A DNA stretch of 58,444 bases, taken from the NCBI GenBank assembly GCA_018398765.1, contig JAHBMJ010000053.1:1-58444 (forward strand). Direction: 5' to 3'. Shown here in pieces: positions 20,109-42,514 of this stretch. This stretch comes from Chromera velia. Lineage: Eukaryota. Under the pieces are notes generated by a model. It ran no database searches. It had not been told where the DNA came from and saw only the letters and a program-made list of their open reading frames with translations. The number at the start of each line of letters is the position of its first letter. Position 1 is the stretch's first letter. A program made the translations under genes and the position numbers.

Positions 20109-20705
20109 ATGAGTATTCCGTACGGTCACGTGCACCAGGGTTATCTCAATGGTCATCAGCTTGGCTACAGACCACAACAGATTGCTTGGCAGATCGCCAA
20201 CCGCAACCCAGTCCAGAGAGGCAGCGGCCAAACTTTTACCGAGGCTGCTGAGAAGGCGTTTGAGAATTGGAAGGAGAAGGTGCCTCAGAATTTTACCGAG
20301 GCTGCTGAGAAGGCGTTTGAGAATTGGAAGGAGAAGGTGCCTCAGAATTTTGCCGAGGTTGCTGAGAAGGCGATTGAGGATTGGAAGACACTCTTCCCTC
20401 GACCTCGACAGGCGCAGACCAATGGGCAGAGAGGTAGACGGCCAAGAAGAGTGAAAGCGCAACCCAAGAGAGGATCTCGGAGAAGACAGCAATCCCTCCC
20501 TTCTTCGTCTTCTTCTCAGTCAAGTTCTGACGAGCTGGATCCTGAAGCAGCAAAGAACCTTGCTGTCGGTCTTATGGCCGTTGGTGCCGCGGGAGCCGTT
20601 GCATATGGAGCCAAGAAGGTTTACGACTGGTTCACAGAACGTCCTGAAGAGTAAGTTTGGCAAGAGATGATGCTGTTTGGTGGTGGTTGTAGTGGCGGTG
20701 GTAGT

Positions 20706-20747
<42 letters not shown>

Positions 20748-21381
20748 TATGTGTGTGTGTGTGTGTGCGTGCATGTATGTTGTGATAAGACGTTGGAATG
20801 GCCTTCTTCGCAATGCATCCCGGATCCAAACTCCTCTCTGAATACTCTGCTCATTTAAGATACACATGCATGCTTTGAACGAATGTACAAGATCTCACAG
20901 CGAATCTCTCTCGCATGGTTTGAAAGGCTATGCAAGAACTCATAGCGAATCTTTGCGTTGCAGCGCTTCCATGGGACCGGGTGGGGAGCGGCCGGTCAAC
21001 AGTGAACGGTTCAGGGAGCAGCCGCCTACAACCGCCGCAGCTCCTGCCGTCGCTCAGGGCTTTGAGGAGGAGTTGCAGTATGCTCAGCCACCCCGCTTGA
21101 CTCAAGGCTTTGTGGAACCGCCCCCTACTCACGTCGCAGCTCCTGCCGTCGCTCATGGCTTTGAGGAGAAGCAGCAGTTTTCAGTCTCGATGTTCCCCCC
21201 TGGGCGACTTGTCCTTGTGACTGGACTGCCTCCAGGTCATCAATTGAACGGAAAGAGGGGTGTCGTTCAGGGCTACAATCCTCTCACAGGAGCTGTGGAG
21301 GTTCGGCTCAATTGTGAAATGAACGGATTGGTATATGTGAATCTCAGGCCCGAAAATCTTGTGAGAAGCCTTCCAACTTAA
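20109..21381 (+). CDS. Hypothetical protein with 19-aa tandem repeats, one hydrophobic helix and a C-terminal SH3-like barrel; probably 2 exons
   Basis: The apparent stop of ORF 20109-20654 lies inside a GTAAGT donor (20651) followed by a (GT)n intron. Acceptors at 20891 or 20900 rejoin in the frame of ORF 20866-21381. The C-terminus FPPGRLVLVTGL...LNGKRGVVQGY...VEVRL...LRPENL fits the GL..LNG..G.V...V.L...P.NL small beta-barrel common in protist proteins. Confidence 0.6.
20234..20385 (+). repeat. Coding tandem repeat, 57-bp unit, about 2.7 copies (FTEAAEKAFENWKEKVPQN)
   Basis: Two identical 57-nt units followed by a third, diverged, partial unit. Confidence 0.9.
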
Positions 21382-22103
21382 TTGTGAGGTTGTTTGACCT
21401 CGACTTTGAATGGGATCCAGTGTGGTCTATGTAGTGTGACCGAAGAAATCTGCGTTTGATCGTTTCATTTTTGGAAGTGGGAATGGGGGTGATGGGCATT
21501 TTATGTCTTCTGCGATTCATGCTTGTCCACGTTTTGTACAATGAATGTCATGACAATTCCTGTTTTGTGGGTTATGAAGTTCTCTCTCTGTTTTCTGGGA
21601 TGCATTCTTGTATGGCATGCTTCCATGTCCATGCTTTGTAGATGACACTTCCTCCTGCGTAAATCAGTCTTCGTGTGGGGGTCTGAATTTTTTGTCATGT
21701 GACCAAGATGTTTTTATGAGAGGGAACATTGTTGTTGTACATTTTTTTGCTCAAAAATGGTTGTCTTCCAAAATTTATTGCAATGGCTCTTCCCCTTTCT
21801 GGCGGAACGATTTTTAGGTCCACTCATCTGCTCTATTGATGCAAGTCTCACTGATACATAGTTGTATGAAGTAGTTCTTCTTGTGCGTTACTTTTTGGTG
21901 AGTACTGGCTTCATGCAGTGTTTTTCAATCGAAATTTTGGAAGTTCTGTGTATTATGTGTGTCACGTACAGTCACAAAAGCGGCAGAATCGGACAATAAA
22001 GGTCATTGAACGCAAGTGGTTGAGCATTCACTGATTGAACATGTGTTCATGGCACAGGCCAGGCGGCCCAGACTTGTGCGGGCCGGCCAAGGAGGTCTGA
22101 TGC

Positions 22104-22192
22104 GTCTAGGCGCTTTCCTTGGAAGCCGCACGCCGGACATTCGGCGTTGGGGGGGGAGGCCAATAACCCCCTGTCCTATTCTATCCTATCCC
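22104..22192 (+). mobile_element. 5'-truncated 3' end of a LINE/SINE-like element (copy 1)
   Basis: ~60 bp matching 26653-26713, followed by a short TCCTA/TTCTA microsatellite tail. Confidence 0.55.
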
Positions 22193-23207
22193 AAGGTTGA
22201 GGTCAGTAGGAATTTAAAATTATTTAATAATGAACAGTATTAAGGATGAAGATTCTTCAACAAAACCTCAAACCAAATTAAGCAAACTTGAACAGAGATG
22301 ACAGTTTATGATCAGATGATATAAAATAATTAGTTTTTGATATTGGTACTGAAAGTACTGAAAAAGGACTGAAAACATCGTAAACAAAATGAAATTTCTG
22401 GTAAAATTTGGGGCCGGTTCGCTCTAAGCTTCGATAACTGGTTTAAAGGTTTTTTTTTGGTACAGTTGTTGCTGATTAACAACTCTTGGCGTCGATAATG
22501 TGTATGTAAAAGAATGAGCGTGCATTGGGTCCTAAGGCATATAAAGTATCCCTAGAAGTATTCAGACTACGCATGGCATATATAATATGGACTGGAACAC
22601 AAACAAAGGAGTACACAATTTTTATTTAATTTTTCGATCGCGCAACAGAAAAAAACAGCTAGAAAAGCAGTCCTGCATTACAAAACTGGAATGGACTCGG
22701 GACTCCAGGACGGCTTGGTGAACTGCCAGGACTATAGTATGCATGGTGAAAGATGGCCATGTATGGCTATGCCACATTTGCGTATGCAACAATGCAACAC
22801 TGAGTGCAGTGCAACAGTGCATGCAACACTGTGCAACAGATGAGCTATAGGGGTTGTCTGCATGGGTTCTTTTGACACATAGAATCGCGACATGCTCAAG
22901 TGCATGGAAACTTCAACTCGCTTCCCCGGGCACAGTTGATCAAATTTGCACGACTTAAGCCACTTCAGACTTTGCAGACTTCAGACTTTTACACCCACTT
23001 GGTCGATACACGATTGAGTCACGCCACAATCGGTTCTTGACGGTATCCATTCGATGGTGAGATTTGTCTTGAGTTGGGAGTCCGACCTTTCCAAATCAGA
23101 CGCCTGAACTCGAAGGGAGTCGAAGCGAGCCAGGAGTTGCAGACAACATTCCCCGTTGCTGTCTGCAGACCCTCTGCAGACCTGAGCCGACACGCAGTGA
23201 ATTTAAG

Positions 23208-26200
23208 ATGAGACAGATTTTCGAAATGCTTTCTCGTCCTGCTTCAGACCGTCTGTTTGGTCCCACAGTTTCCTCTTTTCTCCCGAAAAATTCTGCCCTA
23301 GGGCTCTCTCTAGATCACAGCAGAAGTCGGAAATGGGTTGATCAGCAATCAACAGGGCCGAGCAGGAGGGGCAAAGCTTATGCTGCCCGGGGTGTTGTCT
23401 CAGGCCCTTGGCTTCTGTCGTTCCCAAGTCATCTCCAAAACTGTGCACCAAGAGGGTCTCCGAACAACGATTGGGAAAGAAAACTTCAGACCGACTCCGG
23501 TTTCTTTCCTCTCGCAGGATCTTTTGTAACCTCTTCGGCTCTCTTCTTTGCTGAGAGAGCAACTGAGGTCATAAGTTTTCGTGCTGCTTGTGTGGGGTGC
23601 GTCAGCACACTCCAACATACTCCAAGGCAGTTCAGCACAGCAGCTGCTGTCTTTGCTACTTCTGTCCGGCTGGGAATTGTTGTGGATGAGGTGCGGACGG
23701 GCCTGGGGAAAGTAGCAAGTGCAGAGTGCTCCCAATTCGTCACAATCAGCCAGTCCTGGACTGAGAGGCTGGGCGCAATTGAGCTGGCGGTCGGTGGAAA
23801 GAGCTGTGATTCCTCCTGGATCGCAGGCGCGGAGACTTCTATCCCTGTATCCCGAAAAAGAAAACTTTGCCCACACGGGAAACAGAGCTACGTGTGTATA
23901 GACTGTGGTGGAAAAGGGCTTTGCGAGCATGGCCGTCAGAAGAACTATTGCAAGAAGTGCGGGAGCACACAAATTTGCGTGCATGGCCGCCAGCGCTCTC
24001 ATTGCAAAGAGTGTGGGGGGAAAGGATTCTGTGAACACGGCCGAAGGCGACACATCTGCAAGGAATGCAGAGGAAGCGCCATCTGTATTCATGGTCGTAT
24101 TAAGTACGTCTGTGTGGACTGTGGTGGAAGTGCTATTTGTGAGCATGGCCGTCAACGCAGTCAATGCCGAGACTGCGGGGGAGGAAGCATTTGTTCCCAT
24201 GGTCGGACGCGCTCCACGTGCCGCGAATGCGGCGGTGGTAGTTTCTGTGAACATGGTCGCCGACGTTCAGAGTGCAGGGAGTGTGGGGGTGGCAGCATCT
24301 GTGAACACGGACGCATACGTACAACATGTAGAGACTGTGGGGGGGGGGGTCTTTGTAGACACGGCCGATTACGTCCAAAATGCAGGGAATGTGGAGGGGG
24401 CAGCTTCTGTGAGCACGGGCGCCAGAGAAGCCTTTGCGCAGAATGCCAGAAAGACAATCCCGCTGTTTACCAAAGGCGAGAAAGGCGCAAGATTAGGTAT
24501 AGAGAGAACGTTGCCTACAGATTGGCATACGTAGTCAGAAATTCGGTTTGGAGATGCCTGACTGCTGTACGTGAAAGTAGATCTCTGCCCCAAACTAAGC
24601 ATTCCCACGAGTACCTCGGTTGCTCGTTCCCCGACCTCAAAGCCCACCTCGAGAGGGACGACTTCCACGGTAACCCCGGAATGTCGTGGGAGAATTACGG
24701 GAGTCTGTGGCACGTTGACCATATTGTGCCAATTTGGTACCGCGGGGCTGGGGGTGAGAAACCGGACACTGAGACTGTGATTTGTCGTCTCCACTTCTCT
24801 AATCTACAGCCGATGTGGTCAGAACAAAATCTGCGTAAGGGAAACAGGTATGTGGGGAAAGCATCAGCACTTTCCCTCACAACACAAAATCTCTCCACCA
24901 GGTCTGAATGTATTAGGCAGGAGACAGCCATGGGGGGTAGATCATCCGTGTCAACGAATCCGAGTGTCTTTGGCGGGTTCAGAGGCGTCCGAACCTTCTA
25001 CTCGTTGACTGCCCCAAATGCGTGCACAAGAGCAAATCGTTTCAGTCATCCTGCCACCCTGTGCGCTGGGGGGGTTGTTGCATCAACTGAGGGGGGGTTG
25101 GTGGGACAGGGACGAGCATACAGCAAGCGACTCAACTCCCCCTCAGTAACTCTTATCAGGCCCCTGTCGGCACTTCCGCCCTCCCCTTTGCCCGGCAAGG
25201 TAGACCGACGCATAGGCCCGGGTCCCCCTCCTTCCGGATGCTCTAGGCAGCGGGATGGGGGGTTAGTGCAAGACGAAACAGAACCCAGTCGGAGAGATGC
25301 AATGACAATTGGTGGATCCCTACAAGTAGTCGCACCACAACACGCTGCCCGTTCCGCAGCTTCCACACGTTCGCACTCCCAGGCTGCTCCGCAAAGAGCC
25401 CGTTGTCCCCATGGGAGACAGCAGTATGACTGCAAAGAGTGCGGGGGGAAGGGAATTTGCGAGCACGGCCGAGTTCGAAGGACGTGTAAAGCGTGTGGAG
25501 GGTCGCAAATTTGTGAACATGGTCGGGTTCGGTCGGCATGTAGAGAGTGCGGAGGACCCCAAATCTGCGTGCATGGGCGAAGACGCACCGTCTGTGTAGA
25601 ATGCAGAGGGGGGTCGATTTGTGTGCACGGCCGCATGAGGTACTTTTGTCCCGACTGCCGTGGAAAGGGCATTTGTCAACACAGGCGCCAACGCAGCCAA
25701 TGTCAGGAGTGTGGAGGGGGAGGGATTTGCGAACACGGTCGTGTCCGCTCCTCATGTAAGGATTGCGGGGGTGGGAGTTTTTGCATACACGGTCGTCTAC
25801 GAACCAGATGTAGAGAATGTGGCGGTGGCAGTTTTTGTGAGCACGGTCCTCGAAGAAGTGACTGCCGAATTTGCCAGAAAGACAATCCTGTGTTTGTAGC
25901 CAGGCAAGCACGACGAAAGGAGCTTGTTTTTCGGTTGACTCACACAGTAAGATCCGCCGTTTGGAGATACCTTCGCGCCGTCGGAGACGGCAGATCTCCC
26001 TCCCACAAGAAACGCTCCCACGAATACCTTGGTTGCTCGTTCCCCGACCTCAAAGCGCACCTCGAGAAGGACGACTTCCACGGCAACCCCGGAATGTCGT
26101 GGGAGAATTACGGGGGCTTGTGGCACGTTGACCATATTGTGCCCATCATGTTTGTGGATACCGATGGTCAGAGACCGGATGTAGACACAGTCATTTCTCG

Positions 26201-26294
26201 TCTTCATTTCTCTAATCTTCAGCCAATGTGGGGTGAGGAAAACCTTCGAAAGGGAAATCGGTATATTGGAAAGCCTCCTAGAATTCGTGTATGA
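23208..26294 (+). CDS. Intronless 1028-aa protein: two tandem modules, each an array of 18-aa Cys/His (CxH-x6-CxxC) repeats plus an HNH endonuclease domain
   Basis: Array 1: 11 repeats at 23865-24446. HNH-like domain 1 at ~24510-24860 (YLGCS...LERDDFHGNPGMSWENYGSLWHVDHIVP...NLQPMWSEQNLRKGN). Array 2: 9 repeats at 25401-25874. HNH-like domain 2 at ~25920-26291 (WHVDHIVP...NLQPMWGEENLRKGN). The ORF is uninterrupted. Confidence 0.9.
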   Translation: MRQIFEMLSRPASDRLFGPTVSSFLPKNSALGLSLDHSRSRKWVDQQSTGPSRRGKAYAARGVVSGPWLLSFPSHLQNCAPRGSPNNDWERKLQTDSGFFPLAGSFVTSSALFFAERATEVISFRAACVGCVSTLQHTPRQFSTAAAVFATSVRLGIVVDEVRTGLGKVASAECSQFVTISQSWTERLGAIELAVGGKSCDSSWIAGAETSIPVSRKRKLCPHGKQSYVCIDCGGKGLCEHGRQKNYCKKCGSTQICVHGRQRSHCKECGGKGFCEHGRRRHICKECRGSAICIHGRIKYVCVDCGGSAICEHGRQRSQCRDCGGGSICSHGRTRSTCRECGGGSFCEHGRRRSECRECGGGSICEHGRIRTTCRDCGGGGLCRHGRLRPKCRECGGGSFCEHGRQRSLCAECQKDNPAVYQRRERRKIRYRENVAYRLAYVVRNSVWRCLTAVRESRSLPQTKHSHEYLGCSFPDLKAHLERDDFHGNPGMSWENYGSLWHVDHIVPIWYRGAGGEKPDTETVICRLHFSNLQPMWSEQNLRKGNRYVGKASALSLTTQNLSTRSECIRQETAMGGRSSVSTNPSVFGGFRGVRTFYSLTAPNACTRANRFSHPATLCAGGVVASTEGGLVGQGRAYSKRLNSPSVTLIRPLSALPPSPLPGKVDRRIGPGPPPSGCSRQRDGGLVQDETEPSRRDAMTIGGSLQVVAPQHAARSAASTRSHSQAAPQRARCPHGRQQYDCKECGGKGICEHGRVRRTCKACGGSQICEHGRVRSACRECGGPQICVHGRRRTVCVECRGGSICVHGRMRYFCPDCRGKGICQHRRQRSQCQECGGGGICEHGRVRSSCKDCGGGSFCIHGRLRTRCRECGGGSFCEHGPRRSDCRICQKDNPVFVARQARRKELVFRLTHTVRSAVWRYLRAVGDGRSPSHKKRSHEYLGCSFPDLKAHLEKDDFHGNPGMSWENYGGLWHVDHIVPIMFVDTDGQRPDVDTVISRLHFSNLQPMWGEENLRKGNRYIGKPPRIRV

Positions 26295-26652
26295 GAAGCA
26301 ATACGGACGGAACTTTATTTTACGATTACAATTATAATAATAAAAACACAAAAATTATGAGTGGACGTTATAGTACATAACTCTAGACTCGGATGTAAAC
26401 ATTTATAAATTAATGGCTTCCTACTGCAGTTAAACTTTGACTCAGACTTAGAAATTCTGATTCATCTCCGGTATTCGACCTGTATAGACCTAGGTATAGA
26501 CCCAAGTACGTATAGGTATAGACGTTATATTAAAACGTACTGGTAAACCATGTACGCTGAAGTAAATAATTATTAATTATGATTGAACGTAGATTAAAAC
26601 CTGAGTAATTTAGTCTAGAATTTAGTAAATTTGATTGAATTTATAGCGCTCA

Positions 26653-26750
26653 GTCTAGGCACTTTCCTTGGGAGCTGCACGTCGAACATTCGGCATTGGG
26701 GCGGGAGGCCAATCCTCCGGACATAAATCCTAATCCTAATCCTAATCCTA
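26653..26750 (+). mobile_element. 5'-truncated 3' end of a LINE/SINE-like element (copy 2) with (AATCCT)4 tail
   Basis: Direct repeat of 22104-22164, followed by AATCCTAATCCTAATCCTAATCCT. Short tandem-repeat tails are typical of some non-LTR retrotransposons. Confidence 0.6.
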
Positions 26751-28548
26751 TAAGAAAAAAAGTGCCTCCGAGTCATGCATTAAAAATTGATGCATGAATT
26801 ACTGCTAAAAGCTAGCTTTAGCTTACTTTAACTAGGCTAAAAGATAGAAGCCTAGAAATAGTAGGCTGATCATACTGCTGAATCGAGGCTGATCTACGGG
26901 CTGATCTAGAGGCTGATGGCGATGGCGTAATAATAATGATGATGATCATGAAAACCTCTCTAAAAACCTCTGTAAATAATCAAAAGTCATCAATATACAT
27001 CAAACAATATAATTTAAATTCCTAGTCAAATTTAAATAATAAATCAATCAACTACTATCTATGTCAGCGCTAGACTGATTGATAGGTAGTATTACGGACT
27101 CTACTATAAACTCTTAATTCGCCGCGTCTTCGTCGTCATTTATCATTTTATATTAGTATTTTCTAAAACTTTTGACATATATATGCATAGTCACATCATC
27201 ATCATCATTAGTTTTTTTGATTGAAGCCCCTCAACTAATTAGCATAAGAAGGATTACTGTGTAAATTATTATTAAGACCTTTTTCATTACTCTATTTAAA
27301 CGTGTCTTCTAGCTGTGTCAGAAAGACAGTTTACTAGTAGGACAATTCCCAAATGTGCTAATACACAGTGTTACACATTAAATTTGTCCTACTAGGTAGT
27401 ATATAGCATATCAACGTTATGATAATGATGATGTATGGGGTTAAAGCCGGTGAGCCGTATAGGCTCTGTATATGTGATGTATCGAGATGTGTGTGTGTGT
27501 GTGTGTGTTTTACAAATGTCACTTGAAATGTGAGAGGCGTCTCACATAAATTCCAGCAAGAATTCGGGTCGGAAAGGTGCTGGCAAGCAGGCAGTGATTA
27601 CTGAGTCACATACGTTTACAGAGAGGAAACGCGGGTGAAACCGATAATGCAGGATCGATCCTTTGCATCTTCGTTCGATTGTCCATGCAGAAAGCAGTTG
27701 GACCAGACGGAGGAGAGAGACATTCAAGCAGGCACACCAGCACACTTTTCGTTTACAGAAAGTGGTTGATTCTTTAGATGCAGTGCGCAGCGTTGACTGT
27801 CAGAATTCTGGGAACAAGATTGAGTGAGATTACGGAAAATTTTTGCAAAAGAGGCAAGTGCCCCTCGAGGAAGATGCCGGCAGGCCTCTGAGAAGAGTCA
27901 CGAGAATATAGATACAAAGTGGACAGACACGTACATGCACTGGCAGGGTGCGATTCGACTCACTCGACAGATCAGCAGACTAAGTTACAAAGTGGACAAA
28001 AGAGGGAAGCTTCAGAGCTCCAGACAGAAAGAACAGAGAAATCAGAAAACACACGGCCGAACAAACAAACAGGCAAACCGCATCACCCTTCCATACCTTT
28101 CTGTGCGGAAGGCTCAAGGCAAGAAAAGTGAGAACACATAAAAAGCAAGGGAGCGCGTATCGCGCAGCTGCCCTCCTCTTTCCCGTCGACCTCTTCCCTT
28201 CTGTACCTCTTTCCCAGTCTCCCACAAATACAGTGTGTCAAGTCAAAAATAGAAAACAAACATTGTCGATTTGCCTTTGCCCCTCCTCTATACAGACAAA
28301 GAAAAAAGTGAAGATGGCAAGGTATGTCTTCCAATCTCATACTGTACCAAAGACATCAGTGACAGCAACAGAACAGAAAACACAAGACAAAGAAGGAAAC
28401 TTTCGAAGAATTCATTAAATAAGAAGAGAGAGGCACCACAGAGGAATCGCGGTTCATCTTGCAAAGTCACCCTTCACTTTTTCCCATGCACCCCCCTCTG
28501 TTTCAACCAAGAGCAATACTCGACACTTCATTCCTCCACCACTTTTCC

Positions 28549-31883
<3,335 letters not shown>

Positions 31884-36121: not shown

Positions 36122-36348
36122 AGGGGGGGGTGGACCCTCTCGCAGGGGTACGAAGCGGGCCAATTTGGTACCCCTGGTGGAGGGGGGGGGTCCGACCTGC
36201 TCTGCAAGTTTGCGTCCAAAATGTGTCTAGGAGTGTTTCCTCGACACATTTTGGACGTAAACCTGCAGAGCAGGTCGGACCTCCCCCCTCCACCAGGGGT
36301 ACAAAATTGGCCCGCTTCGTACCCCTGCGAGAGGGTCTACCCCCCCCT
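36122..36348. repeat. Near-perfect GC-rich palindrome (foldback MITE-like), ~110-bp arms
   Basis: AGGGGGGGGTGGACCCTCTCGCAGGGGTACGAAGCGGGCCAATT... pairs with ...AATTGGCCCGCTTCGTACCCCTGCGAGAGGGTCTACCCCCCCCT around a ~5-nt loop near 36235. Confidence 0.92.
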
Positions 36349-36699
36349 CCCAATAAGGGAATTGAAAAAATCTTATTTGCAGAGATGAGCCTTCTTAGTG
36401 CATGCAGAAGGCTTTGTACGATGTCTGTGAGTGTTCTTGTGTGGCTGCAACCTGGCCATTGTGGTTTCTGAATGACTGACTGGTCTGCCCTCGGCAAGGC
36501 ACAAAACTGCCGTCTCCCTTTGCGTGTGTTGTTCACCCCTACCCCCCTCCTCTGCTCTTTGCAGGTCGTGGGTCTCCTCCAGGAGATGCTTATTTTATGT
36601 CTCAGTCCTTCTTCAACTCATCCAGAGGTAGGTCTTTGCATTTTTGTTAAGGCCGCAGTCTTCAGACTGCGAAAGGGAGTAGCGCCCCTACGTGCCGAG

Positions 36700-37435
36700 C
36701 CTATGTTTTTTTCTACCTGCCTGACTGCCTCCGAAATTTCGCCCTTCTTGCTTGCTTGACTGCCCTCTAGCTTTCGGCCTTTCTATCTGGCTAAATGTCT
36801 TCCCAATTTTAGCCTTTCCGCCTGCTCTATTGCCTTCCTAATTTCGGCCTTCGCCGTGCTCCCAATTTCGGTTTTCCTGCCTGCCCGATTGCCTTCCGAA
36901 TTTCGGCTTTCTTGCCTGCCTGACTGCCTTCCAGAGTTTTGCATTCCTGCCATGCTGACTGCTTTCCCATTTCGGCCTTCTTGCCTGCCTGTTTCGGTCT
37001 TTCTGTCTGCCTCAATGCTTTCCAAATTTCAGCCTTTCTGTCTGCGTGACTAACTTTGCAATTTTGGCCTTCTTGCCTGTCCGGTTGCCTTCCCAATTTC
37101 GGCTTTCCTGCCTGCCTGATTGCCTTCCCTATTTTAGCCTTCCTTCCTGCCCAACTTTCCTCCTAATGCTTCCTAATTTCGGTCATCCTGCTTGCCCGAT
37201 GGCCTTCCTAATTTTGTTCTTCCTGCTGGCCCGACTGTCTTTCCAAGTTCGGCCTTCTTGTGTGTCTGACTGCCTCCCAGAGTTCGTTCTTTCTGCCTAC
37301 ATGCCTGCCTTCCAATTTTGGTCTTCTTGGCGGCCTGACTGCCTTCCAATTTCGGCCTTCCTGGCCGCCTGATTGCCTTCCCGATTTCGGCCTTCCTACC
37401 CGTCCGATTGCTTTCCCAATTTCGGTCTTCCTGCT
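36700..37435. repeat. Degenerate minisatellite, ~34-35-bp unit (AATTTCGGCCTTCTTGCCTGCCTGACTGCCTTCC-like), roughly 20 copies
   Basis: Recurrent AATTTCGGC(C/T)TT and GACTGCCTTCC/GATTGCCTTCC motifs at about 35-bp spacing. Confidence 0.85.
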
Positions 37436-42109: not shown

Positions 42110-42514
42110 TACCAAGCGCAACTCAATTTGGCATGATTACAATTGTGATTGCAAATGTGAAAAAGATTTTTATCGTACAAACAGTCTTTTAAAACTTGCG
42201 ATATATTTCTGATAATATTTGTAAAGTCTGTGCAAATTTTTAAGTTCGTACGCGAAACCGATTATGTTTGTGAAAAATATGAAAATTCAAAGTCAGGATT
42301 CGTTTTCCAGGGCCGCCCGACTTTGAATTTTCATATTTTTTGTAAACGTAATTGGTCACGCGTACGAACTTGAAAATTTGTACAGACTTTACAAATATTA
42401 TCAGAAACATGTTGCAAGTCTGAAAAAACTGTTTCCGCGATAAAAATATTTTTCACATTTGCAATCCCAAACGTAATTGGCTGTATGGGTTTCCAAATTG
42501 AGTTGCACTTGGTA
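42110..42514. mobile_element. Foldback MITE with ~185-bp inverted arms, TA-flanked
   Basis: TA|TACCAAGCGCAACTCAATTTGG... and ...CCAAATTGAGTTGCACTTGGTA|TA. Arms are complementary through to AAATTCAAAGTC / GACTTTGAATTT, with a ~25-nt loop at 42295-42319. Confidence 0.88.

What the first reader, a model, noticed from the sequence alone, without database searches (positions are those of the whole stretch)
23208..26294. Natural TALEN/ZFN-like protein: variable 18-aa Cys/His repeat arrays each fused to an HNH nuclease, duplicated in one polypeptide
Seen: one uninterrupted ORF with architecture leader - 11 repeats - HNH - linker - 9 repeats - HNH. Both nuclease domains keep the beta-beta-alpha-metal pattern VDHIVP...N-x8-N-x2-K (WHVDHIVP...NLQPMWSEQNLRK and NLQPMWGEENLRK). 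Established: this is the residue pattern of the SpCas9 HNH domain (D839/H840, N854, N863, K866). The LGCS..L..HLE..F..GMSWENYG.WH.DH variant resembles HNH proteins of phages and large DNA viruses (from recall, not searched). Inference: the repeats form a modular nucleic-acid reader that addresses the nuclease. Single HNH domains usually nick one strand, so two reader-nickase modules in tandem could act as a single-chain paired nickase recognising two half-sites. I know of no functional characterisation of such a system.
Basis: partly seen in the sequence, partly recalled or inferred. Interest (0 to 1): 0.93.

Follow-up and report, generated by a model that had tools for sequence, protein, structure and literature searches.

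The report
Doubled virus-type zinc-array nuclease in alga
A single reading frame in what is likely the genome of the alga Chromera joins two copies of a module common in giant viruses (a chain of predicted zinc-binding repeats ending in a predicted DNA-cutting domain); it likely works as a two-headed DNA nicker kept by the host, but relatives argue against a simple readable DNA code and no transcript of this copy was shown.

Summary
Observation confirmed: one 1028-codon ORF, leader - 11 repeats - HNH - 181-aa linker - 9 repeats - HNH. The best relatives are labelled Chromera velia. The single module is a common, unnamed giant-virus gene. Of the 120 best hits, 42 have an HNH and 64 carry the same array on a PD-(D/E)XK nuclease. 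The same HNH also occurs behind I-HmuI-type NUMOD domains. Viral copies are optional insertions (2 of 68 loci at one site), like free-standing homing endonucleases; this scan has noted such viral genes before on other DNA. New here is the host version. The Chromera HNH domains form one clade, 7 of 9 held paralog models carry two HNH, the linker is conserved, and the two HNH diverged under purifying selection (dN/dS 0.17). No viral neighbours were found. Against a TALE-like code: viral orthologues at one site with 90-97% identical nucleases have 5-11 repeats and scrambled variable residues; that subfamily, however, has D-E where ours has D-H. DNA binding, cleavage, pairing and co-translation are untested. 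Verdict: a new variant of modular homing-type nucleases, doubled in a host; paired nicking is plausible but unshown.

The parts
23208..26294 (+). Single ORF, 1028 aa, two array-HNH modules; no intron is needed to read it
23208..23867 (+). 220-aa leader, Ser/Ala/Arg-rich, no family match; start codon uncertain; basic RKRK stretch just before the array (NLS-like, from recall)
   Evidence: open in 3 of 3000 shuffles; no significant match to paralog models
23868..24446 (+). Array 1: eleven 18-aa C-x-H-x6-C-x2-C repeats (predicted zinc-binding)
24447..24860 (+). Helical segment plus HNH domain 1 (D504 H505 at 24717-24722; N532, N541, K544)
   Evidence: (phrog_1035 endonuclease VII, E 1e-9)
24861..25403 (+). 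181-aa low-complexity linker, homologous to linkers of Chromera paralogs
   Evidence: 37% over 81 aa to P0006, E 3e-11 in a 9-protein set; weaker to P0002, P0004; no Atlas hit
25404..25874 (+). Array 2: nine 18-aa repeats, colinear with array 1 if repeats 7-8 of array 1 are extra
   Evidence: AlphaFold pLDDT 87-95 over the array
25875..26291 (+). Helical segment plus HNH domain 2 (D975 H976 at 26130-26135; N1003, N1012, K1015)
22104..22164 (+). Left copy of a 61-bp direct repeat (88.5% identical to the right copy); high-copy in RNA-type contigs; link to the gene unproven
26653..26750 (+). Right copy of the direct repeat (26653-26713) followed by (AATCCT)x4.2; like a retroelement 3' tail (from recall)

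Best explanation
This is a tandem duplication, in one reading frame, of a giant-virus-type module (predicted zinc-repeat array plus HNH domain) that the host, likely Chromera, has kept and multiplied; each array likely grips DNA with loose, changeable preference and positions its own HNH to nick one strand, so the two heads would together break or doubly damage foreign DNA. Shown: the architecture, the family, intact catalytic motifs, purifying selection, mobility of viral relatives, and recurrence of the double form in paralog models. Inferred: zinc binding, DNA binding, nicking, virus-to-host direction, co-translation, and a defence role against invading DNA such as giant viruses.
For: Family: of the 120 best of 2071 hits, a motif sort gave 64 array + PD-(D/E)XK, 42 with HNH, 8 array only or short tail and 6 other. 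The same HNH sits behind PF22083 NUMOD domains in 9 of the 17 array-free viral HNH proteins scanned. Array and nuclease are therefore exchangeable parts, as in phage homing endonucleases (PMC5714182, PMC10448857, passages). Fold: AlphaFold model pLDDT 86.8. It matches Pithovirus LCPAC304 A0A481Z8I3 over its length (E 2e-26) and a Bodo saltans virus intron-encoded endonuclease (E 4e-7), and PacI, CAD and Cas9 HNH at Z 4.6-3.8. Mobility in viruses: inserted between overlapping YqaJ and SNF2 genes in 2 of 68 loci, with the helicase found and no array in 62. Other copies lie beside major capsid genes, TK, or in a polinton-like contig. Host retention: 15 Chromera HNH domains form one clade (SH-aLRT 100) inside a 98-supported group with 29 array-linked HNH. 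dN/dS between the two HNH here is 0.17 at dS 1.16. 16 of 18 Chromera HNH keep D-H...N..K. 7 of 9 held HNH-bearing paralog models have two HNH, and 3 keep a 157-182-aa spacer to the next array. None of 1497 ORFs from 80 viral loci matches the window outside this ORF. Paralog-like repeat and HNH pieces occur in RNA-type contigs of all 5 runs laid.
Against: No long, near-identical RNA contig covering this ORF, its leader or its linker was among the pieces listed (tables cut, runs only guessed to be RNA), so co-translation is unshown. Paralog evidence rests on predicted gene models, several of them misframed or spliced. Six non-Chromera proteins also hold two HNH stretches without these arrays, with one site often degenerate, so doubling alone need not mean pairing. 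One paralog has D-Y in its second site. dN/dS reports past selection only. The tree is the quick one, midpoint-rooted, with 3 short domains dropped and no clade test. Nothing tested bears directly on a defence role.
Confidence: 0.45

Rival explanations
1. Selfish homing-type gene: the protein cuts the empty allele or similar sites in the host genome and spreads itself, and the doubling turns a nickase into a double-strand cutter, as duplication did for monomeric LAGLIDADG enzymes.
For: Viral relatives behave as optional insertions at fixed sites. The same HNH family includes an intron-encoded endonuclease (PMC5871332 passages). The gene needs no intron and is bracketed by the only two copies found in the window of a 61-bp repeat.
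Against: No terminal inverted repeats, transposase or viral gene were found around it. The modules are old (dS 1.16) and arrays are colinear rather than freshly shuffled. Many dispersed, diverged paralogs are unlike single-site homing (general knowledge).
Confidence: 0.2
2. One reading: each repeat reads bases by a code in positions 6/8/9, and the two modules bind two half-sites and nick opposite strands, a natural single-chain TALEN pair.
For: Invariant scaffold, with the highest entropy at positions 6, 8, 9 across 1056 repeats. Between the two arrays here, those positions keep 37% identity in register against 15% background. The 181-aa linker is long enough to let the modules sit tail to tail (inference). 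Fast array turnover in viruses could be retargeting.
Against: Viral orthologues beside the same downstream gene (13 of 28 distinct loci) have 5-11 repeats and unrelated triplets. Median pN is 0.58 at positions 6/8/9 against 0.08 in the nuclease, over 61 close pairs. That subfamily has D-E, not D-H, so the transfer to this gene is imperfect. The same array also occurs with no nuclease.
Confidence: 0.15
3. Two tandem genes that merely lack a stop between them: module 2 starts at its own Met (575 or 699) or the RNA is spliced, or this copy is silent, so the double protein does not exist as such.
For: Internal Met codons lie in the linker. Leader and linker have a similar composition. First and second HNH domains do not resolve into two clades. 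No bridging transcript was listed.
Against: The linker is open (30 of 3000 shuffles) and homologous and in frame in a paralog only 37% identical. The spacer length is similar in 3 paralogs. Leader and linker show no significant sequence match.
Confidence: 0.12
4. An RNA-directed or organelle-directed factor: the arrays bind RNA (as PPR, HPR or RAP repeat proteins do, from recall) and the HNH trims RNA or is regulatory; the Ser/Arg-rich leader would be a transit peptide.
For: The leader is rich in Ser, Ala and Arg, with a net positive charge. His-Me nucleases include RNases (general knowledge).
Against: The named His-Me structural relatives found are mostly DNases. A basic NLS-like stretch precedes array 1. 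No targeting predictor could be run.
Confidence: 0.08

Closest known systems
Phage HNH homing endonucleases with modular DNA-binding repeats: I-HmuI / His-Me finger group 2 (NUMOD, HTH, AP2 arrays; PMC5714182 passages) and CapR zinc-finger HEGs of ICP1 (PMC10448857 passages)
   Same: An exchangeable repeated N-terminal module plus one beta-beta-alpha-metal domain; the same HNH family carries PF22083 I-HmuI NUMOD-like domains in viral loci; repeat number changes by recombination.
   Different: The repeat is an 18-aa C-x-H-x6-C-x2-C unit with no Pfam, PHROG or PDB match. The whole module is doubled, and it lies in a eukaryotic host genome.
Giant-virus HNH proteins: Pithovirus LCPAC304 'DnaJ central domain protein' A0A481Z8I3, Bodo saltans virus intron-encoded endonuclease A0A2H4UUB1, mimivirus L246
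   Same: Same fold; the Pithovirus protein matches array and nuclease (42% over 288 columns). The Atlas's nearest clusters are 98-100% viral.
   Different: These are single modules with automatic names only. No array-HNH-array-HNH protein outside Chromera turned up (limited sensitivity).
T4 endonuclease VII / F-CphI (DHHRN family; PMC6083498 passages)
   Same: PHROG 1035 'endonuclease VII' matches both domains (E 1e-9 and 1e-5); D-H active-site pair and distal Asn; F-CphI nicks one strand before the other.
   Different: The zinc-binding CxxC pairs of the Endo VII catalytic domain and the DHHRN pattern are absent from these HNH domains (sequence).
Monomeric LAGLIDADG homing endonucleases (PMC13565253 passage)
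   Same: Two copies of a nuclease unit in one chain, a precedent for a single-chain pseudo-dimer.
   Different: Unrelated fold; there the two halves pack into one active unit, whereas here they are separated by about 340 residues of linker and array.
Engineered ZFN/TALEN pairs; natural DNA-binding repeat proteins STAR, MOON, pTERF (PMC11417379 abstract and passages)
   Same: Tandem repeats with a few variable positions; array-then-nuclease order.
   Different: No code is shown here, and one indirect test argues against a fixed address. That paper's main text has no mention of HNH, Chromera, cysteine or virus; its supplements were not read.
Cas9/IscB HNH domain
   Same: Same superfamily; top Foldseek PDB rows are Cas9 HNH domains (best E 0.16), VIA Z 3.8.
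   Different: No RuvC domain and no structured RNA nearby (Rfam 0 hits at 21000-28000); not RNA-guided on present evidence.

Membership tests
HNH / His-Me finger nuclease | beta-beta-alpha-metal fold | tested here: met
   Model strands 242-246 and 274-278, helix 279-285. Viral HNH matches at E down to 1e-6 to 1e-7. PDB matches are weak but mostly His-Me nucleases. Pfam HNH models do not hit.
HNH / His-Me finger nuclease | Catalytic D-H and metal-binding Asn retained | tested here: met
   Both domains; D77, H78, N105, K117 invariant in 33 aligned domains.
HNH / His-Me finger nuclease | Metal-dependent nucleic-acid cleavage | not testable with these tools
   Needs a biochemical assay.
Free-standing homing endonuclease | Optional insertion with filled and empty alleles | tested here: inconclusive
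   Met for viral relatives (2 of 68 and 6 of 80 loci filled). Not testable for this locus: no genome is held and no chromerid DNA was found.
Free-standing homing endonuclease | Modular DNA-binding region exchanged among nucleases | tested here: met
   Array on HNH, on PD-(D/E)XK or alone; HNH on NUMOD or other heads.
Free-standing homing endonuclease | Cleaves the empty allele near the insertion site | not testable with these tools
   Indirectly doubtful for the D-E viral subfamily, whose arrays differ at one site.
TALE/ZFN-like coded reader | Fixed scaffold with few hypervariable positions | tested here: met
   Entropy 3.2, 2.7 and 3.7 bits at positions 6, 8, 9, against 0.13 at the near-invariant G15 (C1, H3, C10 and C13 were fixed by the search pattern).
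TALE/ZFN-like coded reader | Variable residues specify bases, so same target implies same residues | tested here: inconclusive
   Scrambled among viral orthologues at one site, but the real target is unknown; partly conserved between the two arrays here.
Paired nickase / single-chain pseudo-dimer | Two intact active sites in one polypeptide | tested here: inconclusive
   Both sites are intact in one ORF, and the double form recurs in 7 of 9 paralog models; co-translation is not shown.
Paired nickase / single-chain pseudo-dimer | Opposite-strand nicking at two half-sites | not testable with these tools
   Needs cleavage mapping with single active-site mutants.
Endo VII / DHHRN family | CxxC zinc pairs and DHHRN residues within the catalytic domain | tested here: not met
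   Alignment A2 shows no CxxC pair in the nuclease core; definition from PMC6083498 passages.
Endogenous giant virus / polinton-like element | Viral hallmark genes in the surrounding DNA | tested here: not met
   0 of 1497 viral ORFs match outside the ORF. Neighbours match FGE-sulfatase, EGF and GH43 or nothing. Spliced or very distant viral genes could be missed.

The most novel reading that the evidence does not exclude
The 18-aa Cys/His repeat is a new programmable DNA-reading unit. Chromera has turned a giant-virus selfish nuclease into a family of single-chain paired nickases, each with two addresses: a protein-guided restriction system against invading DNA in a eukaryote.
Probability: 0.15. 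Interest if true: 0.92.

Novelty: new variant of a known kind. Interest (0 to 1): 0.6.

Why it matters
The 18-aa repeat is abundant (2071 hits), has no Pfam, PHROG or PDB match, and is joined in nature to at least two unrelated nucleases. At about half the length of a TALE repeat, it is an obvious candidate for a compact DNA-binding scaffold. The Chromera form adds two things: a eukaryotic host that kept and expanded a virus-type nuclease under purifying selection, and a doubled architecture that makes a natural paired-nickase design testable with four constructs. The family is hidden in annotation because gene callers read the arrays in the wrong frame (5 of 11 held Chromera models). If the arrays are only affinity modules, the finding is still a good example of capture of a viral selfish gene by a host, but of moderate interest.

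Tried and rejected
Own-genome search: no genome is held, so flanks of paralogs and empty alleles could not be examined. The metagenome scan gave only 31-46% identical HNH domains and no chromerid DNA. The prokaryote-genome scan with alignment A1 could not run and was left. Expression: no RNA holder was listed; contigs of 5 runs show paralog pieces only, which is no evidence for or against. The 'joints' in those tables join repeats of paralogs, lack splice ends and were not taken as introns. The single-sequence fold was useless (pLDDT 35). The HNH homodimer prediction gave no answer (score 0.00), which is no evidence either way. PDB sequence searches found nothing significant. No structural match was reported for the array, which does not show a new fold. 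The 'DnaJ central domain' label is an automatic name; no J-domain or Pfam support. The two inverted copies in L001/L002 are a mirror-image contig, not a natural pair. A Cas9/IscB-like RNA-guided system was rejected (no RuvC; Rfam blank). An intact endogenous virus was rejected. The careful tree did not finish; the quick tree is used. Literature searches listed no paper on this repeat or on the Chromera family. Only an open-access library was searched and no supplements were read; those of PMC11417379 may list the repeat.
Full report
Observation. The ORF at 23208-26294 is real and stop-free. It reads as a 220-aa leader, 11 repeats, a helical segment plus HNH, a 181-aa linker, 9 repeats, and a second helical segment plus HNH. 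The repeat is C-x-H-x6-C-x2-C with exact 18-residue spacing. Both nucleases keep D-H...N-x8-N-x2-K. Leader and linker are open more often than chance gives (3 and 30 of 3000 shuffles). Pfam has no significant match for any part.

Host. No genome is held for the window. The best protein relatives are labelled Chromera velia CCMP2878, and the window is microsatellite-rich with host-like neighbours. I therefore treat it as likely Chromera. The exact protein is not on record. The +1 frame of array 1 matches the N-termini of 5 of 11 held Chromera models, so gene callers misframe these arrays.

Family. Module 2 finds 2071 relatives. A motif sort of the 120 listed gave 64 with a PD-(D/E)XK tail, 42 with HNH, 8 array-only or short-tailed, and 6 other. 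In viral contigs the array-HNH gene stands alone beside major capsid genes, RNR/SNF2/YqaJ or TK, or in a polinton-like contig. The same HNH follows an I-HmuI NUMOD-like domain in 9 of 17 array-free proteins scanned, and its profile matches 46,391 representatives. An alignment-based AlphaFold model (pLDDT 86.8) matches a Pithovirus protein over its whole length and a Bodo saltans virus intron-encoded endonuclease. It matches PacI, CAD and Cas9 HNH weakly. No solved structure was reported for the array. This exchange of parts is the pattern described for phage homing endonucleases (PMC5714182 and PMC10448857, passages read). Earlier notes of this scan describe the viral single module on other DNA; they are AI notes and not support.

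Mobility of viral relatives. At one site, YqaJ and SNF2 genes overlap. The helicase was found with no array in 62 of 68 loci, and 2 of 68 carry a 1.2-kb array-nuclease insertion, bounded in L161 by a 12-bp duplication that the gene overlap would require anyway. At a second site 6 of 80 loci carry it, and some loci carry an array-PD-(D/E)XK gene nearby. Both insertions belong to a subfamily with D-E in place of D-H.

Is there a code? But in the D-E subfamily, 13 of 28 distinct loci share one downstream neighbour, yet their arrays hold 5-11 repeats with unrelated triplets. Over 61 close pairs (nuclease pN at most 0.11, from 22 genes with at least 4 repeats), median pN was 0.08 in the nuclease, 0.58 at positions 6/8/9 and 0.18 elsewhere in the last four repeats. 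Array pS (0.6) also exceeded nuclease pS (0.32), which points to wholesale replacement. So there the array is not a fixed address for the insertion site: it is either a tolerant binding module or one that is retargeted quickly. The Chromera arrays differ: they are colinear between modules, with 37% identity at the variable positions against 15% background. The code question stays open, leaning against a simple code.

The doubling. 7 of 9 held HNH-bearing Chromera models have two HNH domains. The linker matches the in-frame linker of P0006 (37% over 81 aa) and more weakly two others. The spacer to the next array is 157-182 aa in 3 paralogs and 188 aa here. The two HNH domains here differ at dS 1.16, dN 0.20, and 16 of 18 Chromera domains keep the catalytic motif. 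In a quick tree (88 domains, 3 short ones dropped, midpoint root, no clade test) the 15 Chromera domains form one clade inside a group of array-linked HNH domains; first and second domains do not resolve. Searches of longer proteins returned only Chromera models (weak evidence). Six other proteins have two HNH stretches but not these arrays. No viral gene was found elsewhere in the window. A 61-bp high-copy repeat lies on both sides of the gene; its link to the gene is unproven. RNA-type contigs hold paralog pieces, but no listed piece spans this locus.

Mechanism. Most likely (0.45) this is a virus-derived module, captured once, expanded and doubled in the host. Each predicted zinc array would bind DNA and place its HNH to nick, and the long linker would let the two heads act near each other on foreign DNA. 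The rivals are a selfish homing-type gene (0.2), a strict coded paired nickase (0.15), two separately made proteins or a silent copy (0.12), and an RNA or organelle factor (0.08). Binding, cleavage, pairing, direction of transfer and biological role are all inferred.

Novelty. It works like a modular HNH homing endonuclease. It meets the fold, active-site and modularity tests, but homing could not be tested at this locus. It is not an Endo VII/DHHRN member and not part of an intact endogenous virus. Nine literature searches listed nothing on this repeat or this family. I read passages of nine papers (also PMC12220804, PMC12768974, PMC5871332, PMC6083498, PMC11417379, PMC13565253, PMC5513546) and no supplements. 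Verdict: new variant of a known kind, interest 0.6.

Noticed in passing
window 22104-22185 and 26653-26750: The only two copies found in the window of a high-copy 61-bp element, with degenerate (ATCCTA)n tails, bracket the gene in direct orientation; like a LINE 3' end from recall.
   Followed up: partly
window 36122-36348 and 42136-42477: Long near-perfect inverted repeats (111 nt at 95% with a 5-nt spacer; 162 nt at 86% with an 18-nt spacer), possibly foldback or MITE-like elements.
   Followed up: no
window 36699-37435: Degenerate 35-bp tandem array of about 20 units.
   Followed up: no
window 20109-20654 (+): 181-aa ORF with 2.7 copies of a 19-aa (57-bp) helical repeat and no convincing family.
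   Followed up: no
window 28549-30315 (-): Exon-like ORF with an FGE-sulfatase domain (E 6e-28); host-type neighbour.
   Followed up: no
L157:3382-5205: A prasinovirus-like locus with two adjacent genes sharing the 18-aa repeat, one ending in PD-(D/E)XK and one in the D-E HNH variant.
   Followed up: partly
L309-L347: A viral subfamily of 28 distinct genes in which the HNH D-H is D-E throughout the listed members while the nuclease stays conserved: an alternative active site, or an inactive but retained domain.
   Followed up: partly
P0053: The same array fused to a third nuclease-like tail with Cys pairs and an ERINN motif.
   Followed up: no
P0111, P0010, P0025, P0071, P0118: Array proteins with no nuclease, after a long N-terminal region (one has a Tudor domain, PF21743): possible host DNA- or chromatin-binding proteins.
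   Followed up: no
P0123-P0128: Metagenomic proteins with two HNH stretches of this family and no 18-aa arrays; one site often lacks D-H.
   Followed up: partly
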